From the NCBI GenBank assembly GCA_963699585.1, contig CAVOUK010000007.1:361-64360 (forward strand): 64,000 bases of DNA, written 5' to 3'. The stretch comes from Thermodesulfovibrionia bacterium. Lineage in GTDB: Bacteria; Nitrospirota; Thermodesulfovibrionia; UBA6902. A model generated the notes under the pieces. That model was not told where the DNA came from. It searched no databases and saw only the letters and a program-made list of their open reading frames with translations. Positions 8,562 through 62,674 of the stretch are shown piece by piece. A program made the translations under genes and the position numbers. Position 1 is the stretch's first letter. Each line of letters opens with the position of its first letter.

Positions 8562-8579
8562 TTACAACCTTTAAAAAAA

Positions 8580-8657
8580 GTTTAATTAGTTTAATTAGTT
8601 GTATTAGTTCTATTAGTTAACCAACTCAACTAATGAAACCAATTCAACCAATCCAAC
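8580..8657. repeat. Nonamer tandem-repeat palindrome centred on GTTAAC (family A, copy 1)
   Basis: GTTTAATTA GTTTAATTA GTTGTATTA GTTCTATTA [GTTAAC] CAACTCAAC TAATGAAAC CAATTCAAC CAATCCAAC. Confidence 0.85.
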
Positions 8658-16166: not shown

Positions 16167-16253
16167 GTTTTATTGGTTAAAACTGTTTAATTGGTTTTAT
16201 TGGTTGAGTTAGTTAACTAATCAAACCAATAGAACTAATAAAACTAATTAAAC
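16167..16253. repeat. Nonamer tandem-repeat palindrome centred on GTTAAC (family A, copy 2), nested in family B/C-like arms
   Basis: Five GTTnnnntR-type units, GTTAAC at 16212-16217, four complementary units; reverse-complement homolog of 8580-8657. Confidence 0.85.
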
Positions 16254-22347: not shown

Positions 22348-22475
22348 GCCACAGACTAACACAGAGAAGAAAAAGTGCGAAGTAGAAGTGAGAAGTAATA
22401 AGTAAGAAAAAGCTTTATACTGCCTACTCCCTACTGTTCACTTCTTAATTAAATAAGTCAGTGTAAGTCAGTGGC
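22348..22475 (+). repeat. Family C MITE-like element with internal heptamer arrays
   Basis: GCCACAGACTAACACAGA-(AAGTRAG-type)n-(CCTACTN-type)n-AAATAAGTCAGTGTAAGTCAGTGGC. Confidence 0.85.
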
Positions 22476-24310: not shown

Positions 24311-24387
24311 TCCGCAGATTTCGCAGATTGCACAGATTGAAATAAAATTATCTACAAATCTGTGTTAATCTGTGTAATCTGTGGATG
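24311..24387. repeat. Family B palindromic element
   Basis: TCCGCAGATTTCGCAGATTGCACAGATT...AATCTGTGTTAATCTGTGTAATCTGTGGA. Confidence 0.85.
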
Positions 24388-43990: not shown

Positions 43991-44099
43991 GCCACAGATT
44001 AACACAGACAAGAAAAAATGAGAAGTTAAAAGTAAGAAGTGAGAAGTAAAGAAAAAACTTTATACTTCTTACTTAAATAAGTCAGTGTAAGTCAGTGGC
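43991..44099 (+). repeat. Family C MITE-like element
   Basis: GCCACAGATTAACACAGA...AAGTAAG AAGTGAG...AAATAAGTCAGTGTAAGTCAGTGGC; the last 27 nt are identical to the copy at 22348. Confidence 0.87.
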
Positions 44100-58774: not shown

Positions 58775-59447
58775 TTATATATACTCTATTCCGGCCCTGA
58801 ATTCATTATTGCCCGTCATTGAGATCCATTTAACAATCCCCGCCTTATGCTCTGCCCCTTCGATCTCAATGGTCTGGCCGGCATGGAGTGAGTACTCTGT
58901 AAGGATACCAATTCCCCCATCACTGATATCAACTATATTCCCTTTCAGGTTCAGTATCCTTGATTCTGCAAGTTCAGCGGCTTTTATGGAAAAATCAAAG
59001 GTTTCTTTTAATGGCCTTCTCTCATGCCTTCTCTTGCTTCTCCTGCTTTTCCATATTAATTAGTGGTTCGGACGATCCATCTTTCTCCAGAGCATTCTTC
59101 AGAATAAATTTGACCTGATAGAAATCAAAAGGTTTGGATATGAATTGATAGGCCATCTCTTCCACCTTTTTCTTGCACTCCTCATCAAGGTCTTCTGCTG
59201 TCATGATAATAACCGCGGTCTTCGGTGAAATCTTTTTTATCTTTTTCATGACGTCTATGCCGTTTGCATCGGGCAGGTGTATGTCTAAAAAACAGACATC
59301 ATAAAAACTGGAGGCTATTTCAGATGCAGCCTCAGTGCCGTTATCTATGGATTTAATTTCAACAGGACAGTTACAAAACGCAGGGATATGCTTTGACAGT
59401 CCCCAGCGGATCAGGTTATCGTCATCAACTATCATTATTCGCTTCAT
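58775..59447 (-). CDS. Receiver domain fused to a PilZ domain; frameshift near 59040
   Basis: REC ORF 59022..59447. An alternative frame reads KRRHERRPL...IVDISDGGIGI...GIVKW...FRAGIEYI to a stop at 58775 (RxxxR and DxSxxG). Confidence 0.8.
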
Positions 59448-59761: not shown

Positions 59762-61612
59762 TTACGGATAACTCTCGCCGGTATGGGTCCTACCATGGCA
59801 AACAAGCGTACAGTTTCCCGAAAAAGTGCCTGTATCATTGAATTCAGGGAATTGCTTGCCGGATGCCGGCATAACAACTCTTGTATCGAAATTTATCAGA
59901 TGCGTGTGACTTCCTGAAAGACCGTTGTCTGTTATTCCGTGGGGATCGTGACATACGGAACAGGGAGTGCCTTTTTAGGTCCGCAATGCGTTTTTTGTGT
60001 TCAACGTGAAACTCAAATCGCTCAGTATGCTCGTCCGGTCATGACACCTGTAGCAGAGCGCGTAATTCTGGTAGCTCTCCGGGGTATTGTCCAGGGTCTC
60101 GTATTGGTCCCTTAAGATAGGGGCGTAGGATGAACCATGAGGGCCTCTTGATCCGCCTGAATCATCACTATGGCAGTCGGTGCAATAGATGATACTTGAT
60201 GTTGTGAGGGACGGATTAAATGATGATGGTATGCTGGGTACATTAGGGTTTCTACCTGCTCCGACAACAGGGTGATAAGATGGATTTGTTATGGAAAAAG
60301 CATCCTGCATGTTCGTATTGTCAATAACTCTCGGGATGAAAGGCGTCCGCTGGAATAATTCCGCATGGCACTTAAAACAGATCTCATATTCATAATTGGC
60401 AGGATCAACAGCAGCCCTTTCGGCAGTCATTCCGGACACCTTTTCAAGCCTTCCGGATACATCGGGAGCTGATGCAGTCCGGTTGTTCGCGGCATGCGGA
60501 TTATGACAGTCTGCACATTCTACATGGCGGTTAGCAATAAATGTAGGTGATTCCGTCGGGTCGTGGCTACACCGGTGTACATAGCTCCACAGGATGCCTC
60601 GAAAGTTTCTGGAAATTTGAGAATATATGTTTTTCCCGCTACAGTTCCGTTATGGCATAGTATAGCAGGTATCTTCTTCATTAAGATGTATAGCAGCCGT
60701 TGAGGACCCCCTGCTGAATGGGGCGTATGACAGCCCTCACAAGCCCAGTCTGAGACAAGCGGCCAGGTCGGCCATGACCTTGGAGCTATGGGCAAAACAG
60801 TGCCCGTGGAGCTTGTAGATGTTTTATGGCTTGACAGCATCCAGCCGTCGATATTGCTGTGGCATGTGATGCATAATGCCGAGGCCCGGTTATCCATGAC
60901 AAGAAATTTCCCCGTCAGCTGGCCGTTCTTGTCCGACGACCTGTAGGCGTCCTCGTGCGCGTCATGACATGTCGAGCATTCAATAAACATGCTGCTGCCT
61001 CCGTAAAAAGGGAGGTCTGTAGGGAGAAGTGCCGGATTAAGTCCGGCATAAGGGTTCGGCAATGCATCGAGATACGAAAATGAGAAAGGGTGGTCGTCCG
61101 ACAGCACAACGCCGATATATGACGGCCTCCCCAGCGTGATCTGTCCTGTTGTTGCGATCCCGCCTGACGGCTGCAACACGGCTCCGAGTGCGAGGGTGCC
61201 GTCATGGCAACTGAGGCAGAGCCTTGACGGGCCATTCGGTTGTGAAGGCGTCACGCTCTGGGTCGTGCTTGTGTAAAGGATATAATTTACAGGGTCTATG
61301 GATTTATTCCACAAGCGGGGTCCTCGGAGTAGCATTATGCGGCGTATGACAAAAAATACAGATGCTGGTCTCGACCAGCGCCTTAGCTCACCCGGCCCTG
61401 ATACGGACATGTTATGCTTTGAATTAACGATCCCCACCTTTGAAACTGCGTCAGATGGAGAAACAGAAAACAGAATACAGAATACAGAAAACAGAATACA
61501 GAATACAAAATACCGAATTGCCTCCCGGCCCTGCGAACAGATTGTTAATCCGGTCAAATGCGTCGTGAGACGATTGACTGATGCCTCCTGTTCTATACAT
61601 GTTCATTTTCAT
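59762..61612 (-). CDS. Large periplasmic multiheme cytochrome c (about 11-12 hemes, doubled-CxxCH type); many frameshifts, start uncertain
   Basis: Across frames: CIFCHTPH, CLSCH, CSTCH, CITCH, CEGCH, a probable broken motif near 60660, CADCH, CFKCH, CTDCH, CYRCH, CSVCH and a terminal CTLVCH; stop at 59762. Confidence 0.88.
61464..61519. repeat. Heptamer tandem array encoding the cytochrome signal-peptide core
   Basis: (CAGAAAA CAGAATA CAGAATA)x2 CAAAATA CCGAATT; the minus strand reads YFVFCILFSVFCILFSV. Confidence 0.9.
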
Positions 61613-62674
61613 TGTTTGATTCTCATGATCTCAAATACCTGGATCCTATGATTGTACGTATCGCACACATATAGTCTATCACTTTCGTCGATGAAGATTC
61701 CAGACGGCAGCCAGAACTCTCCCTGATCAACACCCCTGCTGCCGAGCGTCAAAAGGAATTCTCCTCTTTCGTCAAAAAGCTGGATGTTATCGAAAAGACT
61801 GTCGACGACGTAAATAGTGCCCTTTCTATCAACAGCCACGCCTTTGGGCATTGCAAAATCTCCGGAGCCGTCGCCGTGATGACCGATTGCAGCATGGAAT
61901 TTCCCTGAGCTGTCGAATATCTCCACCCTGTAGTTCATTGAATCCGTCACATATATCAGCCCGGCCGGAGACCAGAAGATATGTGTCGGAAAATTGAATT
62001 GCCCGTCGCCGTTGCCCCTTAACCCGAATGAAAAGAGGCGCTCTCCCTTAGAAGTGAAAACATGAACCTTGTGCGAGGCTGTGTCTACGGCAAACAACCT
62101 CTTTTCGCCCGGGTCGTAGGCAAGGCCGGTCGGCCGTTTCAGGTCGCCTTCAAGCTTACTGCCGATAGAAAAAAGGTATCCACCCCTGTTGTCATAGACA
62201 GCGATCTTTTCAAGAAACGAATCGGATACATAGAGTCTTAATTCATCATCAAAGGCAACACTCACCGGGGATATCATAGGCTCTCCGGCGCCAAGGCGGA
62301 AGATGTCGATATACTGGTCCTCTTTGGGTATGTAAAGGTGAACGCTCTTTGTGCCTGTATCGGCTATTGCGATCCTCCCGTCAGTTCCGGTTGCAACTGC
62401 AACCGGCCTCATGAGCCTGTTTTCTTCATTTCCCATGAAGAACCCTCTCAGCGATCTCCCCCTTCTCTCTGAACCCCTGTATTGTCATGACATGACGGAC
62501 CCTCTGTTCTTCAGGCGGCAGCGGCCATGCAAGCTGCACCACCTGAGGCTGCACATTCAGGGTCCCACTTACGGGCACACCCCGCAGTAATAAGGACTGC
62601 GAGACATATTAAGACACACAGCTTCCTGTTCAATTTTCCCAGGTTTCTCATTTTCATTTTTCCCTTACTGCCAT
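61609..62674 (-). CDS. NHL-repeat (6-bladed beta-propeller) lipoprotein; N-terminal frameshifts
   Basis: F..P..VAVD..G.IYV.D..N.R.QVF repeats; upstream LITAGC lipobox and WPLPPEEQRV in other frames. Confidence 0.87.

What the first reader, a model, noticed from the sequence alone, without database searches (positions are those of the whole stretch)
61464..61612. Cytochrome signal peptide written by a heptamer array: possible phase-variation switch
Seen: the hydrophobic core YFVFCILFSVFCILFSV is encoded by eight tandem heptamers including a perfect 21-bp duplication, and the array reads hydrophobic and stop-free in all three minus-strand frames. The natural coupled start (ATGA overlap with the NHL stop at 61612, with in-frame ATGs at 61606 and 61600) is one base out of frame with the cytochrome and terminates just after the array. 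Deleting exactly one 7-mer, or one base, restores the frame. Inference: either a repeat co-opted as a signal peptide plus a sequencing indel, or a slipped-strand ON/OFF switch for the conduit.
Basis: partly seen in the sequence, partly recalled or inferred. Interest (0 to 1): 0.7.

Follow-up and report, generated by a model that had tools for sequence, protein, structure and literature searches.

The report
Repeat-written signal peptide, not a switch
Eight copies of a 7-base repeat really do spell the greasy core of a cytochrome's export signal, but the repeat is old and stable in relatives, and the broken reading frame lies outside it and is most likely an assembly error.

Summary
Window 61459-61518 (minus strand) is an array of about 8.7 TTCTGTN heptamers. 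It includes a perfect 45-nt stretch of 21-bp repeat and encodes the hydrophobic core of a multihaem cytochrome's signal peptide. The ATGA-coupled start at 61612 is one base out of frame.

The switch reading is not supported:
- Four intact orthologs (G009, P0002, P0003, P0004) carry the same array-derived core, in frame from their start codons and within 0-3 codons of the same length.
- All three metagenome contigs that span the array (90-95% identical) show no 7-nt length change.
- The frame break lies upstream of the array: one surplus base at 61590-61597.
- It is one of at least 13 frame-breaking indels in the NHL-cytochrome pair, and the relatives checked lack them.
- In this assembly, 28 of 137 genes compared are frame-broken in the same way, mostly by 1-nt insertions.
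- Substitutions against relatives sit mainly at third codon positions.

So this is a co-opted repeat plus probable consensus errors. A real, recently decayed operon remains possible.

The array is one case of a genome-wide and genus-wide habit: 14 of 27 strong N-terminal heptamer arrays encode hydrophobic cores. This scan has noted the same phenomenon before on other DNA (183 notes, at least 152 genomes). Two literature searches found no paper on it.

The parts
61459..61518 (-). Heptamer tandem array (about 8.7 x TTCTGTN), translated as the hydrophobic core YFVFCILFSVFCILFSV of the cytochrome signal peptide
   Evidence: TRF; translation; ungapped alignment to the same array in G009
61463..61507 (-). 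Perfect 21-bp (three-unit, seven-codon) repeat, 2.1 copies, inside the array
   Evidence: Exact run of 24 nt at offset 21; direct-repeat family D1
61590..61597 (-). Site of the one surplus base (TATAGAACAGG against G009's TTCAG-ACAGG) that puts the coupled ATG out of frame with the cytochrome
   Evidence: Downstream of it, frame A reads QEASVNRL, matching QEASVSRL of G009
61609..61612 (-). ATGA overlap: stop of the NHL gene and the ancestral start of the cytochrome gene
   Evidence: same overlap in G009 (L003 1117-1120)
61451..61612 (-). 53-codon ORF produced by reading from the coupled ATG in the shifted frame; judged an artefact of the surplus base
   Evidence: no Pfam family
59762..61612 (-). 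Multihaem c-type cytochrome gene (Paired_CXXCH family; about 600 aa in relatives), cut here into pieces in three frames
   Evidence: Pfam; indel list; frame chain against P0004; intact orthologs of 592-628 aa
61609..62657 (-). NHL-repeat beta-propeller lipoprotein gene, upstream partner, broken by 1-nt insertions near 62563 and 62452
   Evidence: Pfam; intact 343-aa ortholog; indels
61557..61559 (-). TTG, the first start codon in the cytochrome frame as assembled. It is a possible fallback start, two codons downstream of the position that aligns with P0004's ATG (window ACG 61563-61561)
   Evidence: 345-aa ORF; P0004 N-terminus; my alignment by eye

Best explanation
The array is a domesticated member of a genome-wide class of heptamer tandem repeats. 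It is translated and supplies the hydrophobic h-region of the Sec signal peptide of a roughly 600-residue multihaem c-type cytochrome (11 CXXCH motifs in the intact ortholog) encoded just after an NHL-propeller lipoprotein gene. Inferred mechanism: a positively charged n-region, the repeat-written h-region, and a small-residue cleavage site (SDA or AAA) a few residues before the conserved SKHN motif. Export is needed because haem is attached outside the cytoplasm. The array arose before this clade diversified and has since kept its length. It changes by point substitution and by in-frame (21-bp) homogenisation, so it does not act as a frame-switching tract. The frame break in the window is not in the array. 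It is one surplus base at 61590-61597, one of at least 13 frame-breaking indels in the NHL-cytochrome pair. These are most likely consensus errors of an indel-prone assembly.
For: Shown:
1. The array is real and far beyond chance.
2. G009, a congener with 81% DNA identity here, has an intact 614-aa gene with the ATGA-coupled start in frame through an array of the same unit number, aligned without gaps.
3. Three more intact orthologs from the protein collection (P0002, P0003, P0004) read from Met through an SVFC/LLxS-periodic core into SKVGI(I/V)NSKHN. Core length is equal or within 1-3 codons.
4. Contigs of three independent metagenomes, 90-95% alike, span 61459-61518. Their record lengths equal the window length apart from single-base gaps, so there is no 7-nt change (table 8: X1 record 4, X3 record 8, X4 record 16).
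5. More distant orthologs have ordinary signal peptides in the same slot before the KHN motif.
6. Against G009 the pair carries 11 frame-breaking insertions and 2 deletions in well-aligned coding sequence. Relatives' contigs lack them wherever listed: 61312 and 62454 in 4 of 4 runs, 60659 and 60569 in 3 of 3 covering runs, and others (table 4).
7. 28 of 137 G009 ORFs of >=200 aa that have an ortholog of >=60% identity in this assembly match it in more than one frame. In 11 such genes the breaks are mostly 1-nt insertions outside homopolymers.
8. Of 25 listed substitutions against relatives in 59975-60439, 19 are at codon position 3, 4 at position 1 and 2 at position 2. That pattern indicates purifying selection, not neutral decay.

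From general knowledge (recalled, not tested here): bacterial pseudogenes show a deletion bias, which is the opposite of the excess of insertions seen here.
Against: - No reads of the source sample were available, so the indels are not proven to be errors.
- Broken genes cluster: five consecutive genes, C7 59138-69094. Real decay of one operon would also look like this.
- Three of the indels are 2-nt insertions within 35 nt, an odd error pattern.
- The array is not inert. The seventh unit base is mostly A in this genome and mostly C in G009, and a perfect 45-nt 21-bp repeat exists here. Slippage or conversion has therefore acted since the split.
- No signal-peptide predictor was run. The tripartite structure was judged by eye.
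- NCBI's own call of the G009 protein (P0005, 553 aa) starts after the array.
- The surplus base is placed from the G009 alignment alone. The 90-95% relatives have 43 other letters in place of 61543-61624 (table 5).
Confidence: 0.72

Rival explanations
1. Real pseudogenes. The NHL-cytochrome cluster has truly decayed in this strain, the indels are genuine mutations, and the array is a relic of a formerly working signal peptide.
For: Five consecutive genes are broken while the adjacent histidine kinase (612 aa) and sigma-54 regulator (463 aa) are whole. Relatives keep the genes intact.
Against: About a fifth of compared genes, on 7 of the 12 contigs, are frame-broken (28 of 137), which is unusual for a free-living bacterium. 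Breaks are mainly 1-nt insertions, against the deletion bias known for bacterial pseudogenes (recalled). Substitutions against 90-95% relatives are 19 of 25 at third positions, so there is no sign of neutral drift to match 13 or more indels.
Confidence: 0.2
2. Slipped-strand phase variation. Gain or loss of one heptamer toggles the cytochrome between ON and OFF, as CTCTT repeats do in Neisseria opa genes.
For: The architecture fits: a unit that is not a multiple of three lies between the start codon and the mature protein, and is stop-free in all frames. Loss of one unit would restore the frame from the coupled ATG. Units are homogenised within each genome, so slippage or conversion happens on evolutionary time.
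Against: Unit number is identical in G009 and in 3 of 3 spanning metagenome contigs, and core length is within 0-3 codons in four intact orthologs. The frame break maps upstream of the tract. The longest exact run at offset 7 is only 13 nt, against 24 nt at the in-frame offset of 21, so the easiest slip keeps the frame. The gene has at least 8 further frame switches that no heptamer change could mend. In 19 of 19 orthologs of two other genes with repeat-written signal peptides, the frame stays open through the array.
Confidence: 0.04
3. The assembly is right at the 5' end, and this strain starts the cytochrome at the in-frame TTG at 61557. That gives a short n-region like the one in P0004. The coupled ATG is then a dead relic.
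For: P0004 and the 90-95% relatives have a short N-terminus. P0004's ATG aligns with window ACG 61563-61561, two codons before the TTG. The 345-aa ORF from that TTG is open through the array.
Against: No Shine-Dalgarno-like sequence precedes the TTG (by eye). The n-region would have a net charge of about +1. Frame A upstream still reads the ancestral QEASVNRL. The gene is broken many times downstream in any case.
Confidence: 0.04

Closest known systems
Neisseria opa genes: CTCTT pentamer coding repeats in the leader-peptide region (passage read in PMC3960869)
   Same: A short tandem repeat whose unit is not a multiple of three lies inside the signal-peptide coding region and is translated as its hydrophobic part. 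It is stop-free in every frame.
   Different: In opa the repeat number varies at about 10^-3 per generation and switches the frame. Here the number is the same in every relative examined, the tract is imperfect at period 7, and the frame break lies outside it. The organism is an uncultured anaerobic Nitrospirota bacterium, not a host-adapted pathogen.
Heptamer direct repeats of non-pathogens: TAACTGA arrays of Beggiatoaceae, Cyanobacteria and Bacteroidetes (MacGregor 2015, PMC4679880, passages read), and the long simple sequence repeats of Mrazek et al. 2007 as summarised there; cyanobacterial STRR (recalled)
   Same: Many short arrays of 7-nt units are spread over the genome, mostly between genes and occasionally translated (LSVISYQ in that paper).
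   Different: That paper describes one dominant unit and suggests roles in translational regulation. Its text contains no 'signal peptide'. Here there are 159 different canonical units, and arrays in gene 5' ends are read as n- and h-regions of signal peptides.
Earlier notes of this scan on heptamer-written signal peptides (e1-3881595 and e1-3881593 in another Nitrospirota genome; e1-7313842; e1-2878993)
   Same: Same phenomenon: genome-wide heptamer arrays translated as the hydrophobic core of export signals, with related species carrying different arrays in the same slot.
   Different: Several of those notes describe arrays as arms of hairpins. Here no inverted partner exists and the RNA fold is unremarkable (z -1.2). 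They are unreviewed AI notes, not publications.

Membership tests
Phase-variable contingency locus (coding simple-sequence repeat, opa type) | Repeat unit not divisible by three, placed between the start codon and the mature protein | tested here: met
   Period 7, inside the signal-peptide coding region
Phase-variable contingency locus (coding simple-sequence repeat, opa type) | Long uninterrupted perfect tract that favours slippage by single units | tested here: not met
   87% matches. The longest exact run is 13 nt at offset 7, against 24 nt at offset 21
Phase-variable contingency locus (coding simple-sequence repeat, opa type) | Unit number differs among strains or reads and changes the frame | tested here: not met
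   Same number in G009 and in 3 of 3 spanning contigs of other metagenomes. Four intact orthologs are in frame. Reads of the source population were not available
Phase-variable contingency locus (coding simple-sequence repeat, opa type) | The OFF state is caused by the tract itself | tested here: not met
   The break maps to 61590-61597, upstream of the tract
Sec-type (signal peptidase I) signal peptide | Charged n-region, hydrophobic h-region of about 10-25 residues, small residues at -3 and -1 | tested here: inconclusive
   Seen by eye in G009, P0002, P0003 and P0004. The array peptide has a mean Kyte-Doolittle value of 2.23. No predictor was available
Sec-type (signal peptide I) signal peptide | Occupies the position of the signal peptide in orthologs | tested here: met
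   Orthologs without the array have ordinary signal peptides directly before the conserved KHN motif
Heptameric long simple-sequence repeats (STRR-like) | Period-7 tandem arrays over-represented across the genome | tested here: met
   377 period-7 rows against 45 in a locally shuffled genome; score >=40: 156 against 0
Heptameric long simple-sequence repeats (STRR-like) | Mostly intergenic | tested here: met
   92 of 156 strong arrays lie in the 18% of the genome outside greedy ORFs. Density is 21.1 per 100 kb there, 6.7 in the first 180 nt of ORFs and 2.3 in the rest
Multihaem c-type cytochrome with doubled CXXCH domain (Pfam PF09699, TIGR01905) | Match above the curated cut-off | tested here: met
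   PF09699 scores 37.5 and 33.4 bits (cut-off 20.6) on the two window pieces. TIGR01905 scores 48.2 bits (cut-off 25.2) on the G009 ortholog. DmsE and GSU2203 decahaem models score far below their cut-offs, so this is not a member of those families

The most novel reading that the evidence does not exclude
In this Nitrospirota genus, and independently in other sediment bacteria such as a Geobacteraceae MAG, heptamer tandem arrays may be a regular raw material for signal peptides. Purine-rich arrays such as AAGTCAG are read as charged n-regions (KSEVKSQ). Pyrimidine-rich, stop-free arrays such as TTACTGC or TTCTGTN are read as h-regions. Arrays are replaced between species but held at fixed length between close relatives. 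Repeat expansion at gene 5' ends would then be a mechanism that creates and renews protein-targeting sequence. A low-rate ON/OFF or length-tuning effect is not excluded.
Probability: 0.45. Interest if true: 0.65.

Novelty: new variant of a known kind. Interest (0 to 1): 0.4.

Why it matters
For this locus the practical message is caution. The apparent switch is a frame error in an assembly where about one gene in five is frame-broken, so other odd frames in this genome deserve the same suspicion.

The positive result is that simple repeat DNA is stably translated as working-looking export signals. It occurs in an electron-transfer cytochrome and in at least a dozen other envelope proteins of this genome. 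It is conserved in sister species and replaced by other arrays in more distant ones.

Two literature searches found nothing relevant. If general, this shows how targeting peptides can arise from non-coding repeats. It also explains why gene callers truncate such genes: the NCBI call of the G009 ortholog starts after the array.

Tried and rejected
- Source reads: the look-up of sequencing runs found no run holding more than 15% of the words, so unit numbers in individual reads of the source sample could not be counted.
- Other contigs on the array: the depth spike at 61417-61517 in all four laid runs comes from short pieces of unrelated contigs with similar repeats (tables 2, 7, 8). It says nothing about this locus. 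The single backward joint in X6 (61495 to 61460, depth 4.2) was not interpretable.
- Close orthologs in JGI metagenome contigs: the best of 80 loci kept was 61% identical, so none was usable for unit counting.
- Hairpin partner for the array, suggested by earlier notes: no inverted repeat in 61300-61750. The RNA fold of 61430-61625 has z -1.21, with 25 of 200 shuffles folding as well.
- Conservation of intergenic arrays between G009 and this genome: both flanks could be placed for only 6 of 11 strong arrays in a 342-kb sample. The two coding arrays kept their length and the intergenic ones did not. The sample is too small for a rate.
- Homopolymer association of the indels: not seen, so a simple homopolymer error model is rejected. 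The errors look like scattered insertions.
- Programmed ribosomal frameshifting: considered and dropped, because all four intact orthologs are in one frame.
- Mrazek et al. 2007 could not be read (not held). It is cited only as summarised in PMC4679880.

Full report
**What is there**

On the minus strand, window 61459-61518 holds about 8.7 tandem heptamers of the form TTCTGTA/TTCTGTT (TRF score 85, 87% matches). Inside it, 45 nt form a perfect 21-bp repeat: the exact run at offset 21 is 24 nt, 61507-61484 (direct-repeat family). In the frame of the downstream cytochrome it reads AIRYFVFCILFSVFCILFSVSPSDA.

The array is far beyond chance. A locally shuffled copy of the 2.42-Mb genome gives no period-7 array with score >=40, against 156 in the real genome. 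This array is the second best of 377 period-7 rows.

One correction of emphasis is needed. "Hydrophobic and stop-free in all three frames" is automatic for a 7-nt period, because three units make seven codons and every frame reads the same seven codons. It is not extra evidence for a switch.

**The gene**

The pieces 60520-61557 and 59975-60439 both match Pfam Paired_CXXCH_1 above its cut-off. The upstream ORF is an NHL-repeat propeller. Whole-genome searches of 40 relatives found intact orthologs of 570-617 codons. The closest, in congener G009, has a 343-aa NHL lipoprotein gene followed, with the same ATGA overlap, by a 614-aa cytochrome with 11 CXXCH motifs. By its public record G009 is a groundwater Nitrospirae MAG.

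**The array in relatives**

- G009 carries the same array at the same place (CTTCTGT x 7, period-21 signal). It aligns to the window's array without a gap and is in frame from the coupled ATG...ESRELVLLSSVFCLLSSVFCLLFFVCQAAADSKVGIINSKHN.
- A search of the large protein collection with the N-terminal 130 residues found three more intact orthologs with the same periodic core. All read from a Met into SKVGI(I/V)NSKHN:
  - P0002: ALLYSVFCILLSGFCVLFFVF
  - P0003: VLSPLFSLLFIVCYLLSSV
  - P0004: AIRYFVFCLLYTFFCLLFSV
- Core length is equal or differs by 1-3 codons, never by a frame-changing amount.
- Contigs of three independent metagenomes (X1, X3, X4; 90-95% alike) span the array. Their record lengths equal the window span apart from single-base gaps, so no unit was gained or lost. 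A fourth (X6) covers only part of it (table 8).
- More distant orthologs have ordinary signal peptides in the same slot.

The array is therefore old, translated and length-stable. It is not inert. The seventh base of the unit is mostly A here and mostly C in G009, and the 21-bp repeat here is perfect. That points to in-frame homogenisation since the two species split.

**Where the frame breaks**

Downstream of 61590 the cytochrome frame of the window reads QEASVNRL, matching QEASVSRL of G009. Upstream, the window has 22 nt between the ATG and that CAG where G009 has 21 (TATAGAACAGG against TTCAG-ACAGG). The break is therefore one surplus base at 61590-61597, about 70 nt before the array.

It is not alone. 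Against G009, the well-aligned coding parts of the NHL-cytochrome pair carry 11 frame-breaking insertions and 2 deletions:

- Insertions near 62563, 62452, 61592, 61316, 60659, 60637, 60581, 60569, 60004, 59979 and 59972.
- Deletions near 61384 and 60687.

Against P0004 the reading frame changes at least seven times along the gene. Relatives' contigs lack these indels wherever the table lists them. One base is left out at 61312 and at 62454 in 4 of 4 runs, and at 60659 and 60569 in 3 of 3 covering runs. Two bases are left out at 60583, 60000 and 59978 in two runs each. Twenty-one further rows were not shown (table 4).

**Error or decay?**

Three results point to consensus errors.

1. I took 218 ORFs of >=200 codons from 342 kb of G009. 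Of these, 137 have an ortholog of >=60% identity in this assembly, and 28 of the 137 match it in more than one frame, on 7 of its 12 contigs. Another 98 match in a single piece covering >=90%, and 11 are partial.
2. In 11 such genes aligned at the DNA level, the frame-breaking indels are mostly single-base insertions outside homopolymers. Bacterial pseudogenes are known for a deletion bias (recalled).
3. Of the 25 substitutions against relatives listed within 59975-60439, 19 are at third codon positions, 4 at first and 2 at second. Neutral decay long enough to collect 13 or more indels should have spread substitutions evenly.

Against this:

- Broken genes cluster: five consecutive genes, C7 59138-69094.
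- Some indels are 2-nt insertions.
- No reads of the source sample could be found.

I therefore keep a real, recent pseudogene at about 0.2.

**A possible fallback start**

P0004 and the 90-95% relatives have a 39-nt shorter junction: 43 letters replace 61543-61624 (table 5). P0004's ATG aligns with window ACG 61563-61561. The window's first in-frame start, TTG 61557, lies two codons further on. If the surplus base were real, this TTG could give a short N-terminus. However, it lacks a visible ribosome-binding site, and the gene is broken downstream anyway.

**The wider pattern**

The array is one case of a habit of this genome.

- Of 156 strong heptamer arrays, 92 lie outside greedy ORFs (21.1 per 100 kb), 27 in the first 180 nt of ORFs (6.7 per 100 kb) and 37 in the rest (2.3 per 100 kb).
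- 14 of the 27 N-terminal arrays encode hydrophobic stretches, against 3 of 37 elsewhere.
- Examples are lipoprotein signals ending in a lipobox, such as LLLTVYCLLFTAYCLLFFPAC in an RND-adaptor-like gene, and pseudopilin leaders written by AAATTTC arrays.
- For two such genes I looked at all ten congeners. In the closest species (G000, G006, G009 for the adaptor; G000 and G009 for an ApbE-like lipoprotein) the array-written h-region has the same length.
- More distant congeners have other arrays or none in the same slot. Charged n-regions are written by AAGTCAG-type arrays (KSEVKSQ).
- In all 19 orthologs the frame stays open through the arrays.
- Among 168 orthologs of this cytochrome from many phyla, heptamer arrays also sit in the N-terminal region in a Geobacteraceae MAG (ACTTTGC x 14.6, L052), in L155, L199/L201, L021 and L080. 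These look like independent origins.

**Comparison with what is known**

The architecture is that of Neisseria opa genes, where CTCTT repeats in the leader-peptide region switch the frame at about 10^-3 per generation (PMC3960869, passage read). Of the defining features of such a contingency locus, only the placement is met. Tract perfection, unit-number variation and a break inside the tract were tested and not met.

The repeat class resembles the heptamer direct repeats of Beggiatoaceae, Cyanobacteria and Bacteroidetes (PMC4679880, passages read). That paper does not mention signal peptides.

Two full-text searches for heptamer or heptanucleotide repeats together with "signal peptide" returned only Haemophilus phase-variation papers and two eukaryotic parasite genome papers.

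This scan has recorded the same phenomenon before on other DNA: 183 notes in at least 152 genomes, including another Nitrospirota genome. I reached the pattern here from my own before reading those notes. The hairpin feature some of them describe is absent at this locus.

**Verdict**

The "co-opted repeat plus indel" alternative is supported and the phase-variation switch is not. I rate it a new variant of a known kind, of moderate interest. The interest lies in the stable translation of repeat DNA as export signals, not in a switch for the cytochrome.

Noticed in passing
whole genome G000 (all contigs): About one gene in five is frame-broken relative to congener G009 (28 of 137 compared). The breaks are mostly scattered 1-nt insertions and often fall in runs of neighbouring genes. 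Any odd frame, split gene or 'pseudogene' reported from this assembly should be read with that in mind.
   Followed up: partly
G000 outside the window: C8:170360-171532, C3:122320-123537, C2:153080-153586, C2:520024-520830, C2:763880-764614, C2:633540-634643, C2:489043-489753, C2:338042-339067: Other envelope proteins (RND adaptor-like, lipoproteins, TolC-like, LolA- or TolB-like by their N-termini) have signal-peptide cores written by heptamer arrays such as TTACTGC, CTACTGT and ACTTGTC. The protein names are my impressions, not searched.
   Followed up: partly
G000 C9:97056-98596 and C5:6523-6930: Pseudopilin-like genes (GFTLIE motif) have leaders written by AAATTTC, CAAATTA and CAGAAGT arrays (KFQISNF, RSQKSEV).
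   Followed up: no
L052 (Geobacteraceae MAG) and L155 (soil metagenome contig), N-terminal region of the orthologous cytochrome: An unrelated heptamer array (ACTTTGC x 14.6; CTTTGCA x 7.4) writes LHFALCT repeats in the signal-peptide slot of the same cytochrome family. This looks like an independent origin in another phylum.
   Followed up: no
P0005 (public annotation of the G009 ortholog): The deposited protein is 553 aa and starts at the residue after the array, so it has no signal peptide. Gene callers seem to avoid starts upstream of such repeats.
   Followed up: no
window 59022-59447 (-): A receiver-domain gene of 141 codons ends in a 9-mer array (CTTCTCCTG, read as EKQEKQEKA). Its G009 ortholog is 223 codons and matches here in two frames, so it is also broken.
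   Followed up: no
window 8579-8657, 16167-16253, 24313-24383: Pairs of adjacent 9-mer tandem arrays (for example AGTTTAATT x 4.4 next to AACCAATTC x 4.3). The pair at 24313-24383 looks like inverted copies. Period-9 arrays are also over-represented genome-wide (303 against 55 in the shuffle).
   Followed up: no
window 22364-22473 and 44021-44097: Two loci each combine an AGAAGTA-type heptamer array with a perfect TAAGTCAGTG x 2 about 50 nt downstream. They may be two copies of one small repeated element.
   Followed up: no
G000 C2:153080-153586: The ApbE-like lipoprotein ORF is 168 codons here but lies in open frames of 358-434 codons in nine congeners. It is probably another frame-broken gene.
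   Followed up: no
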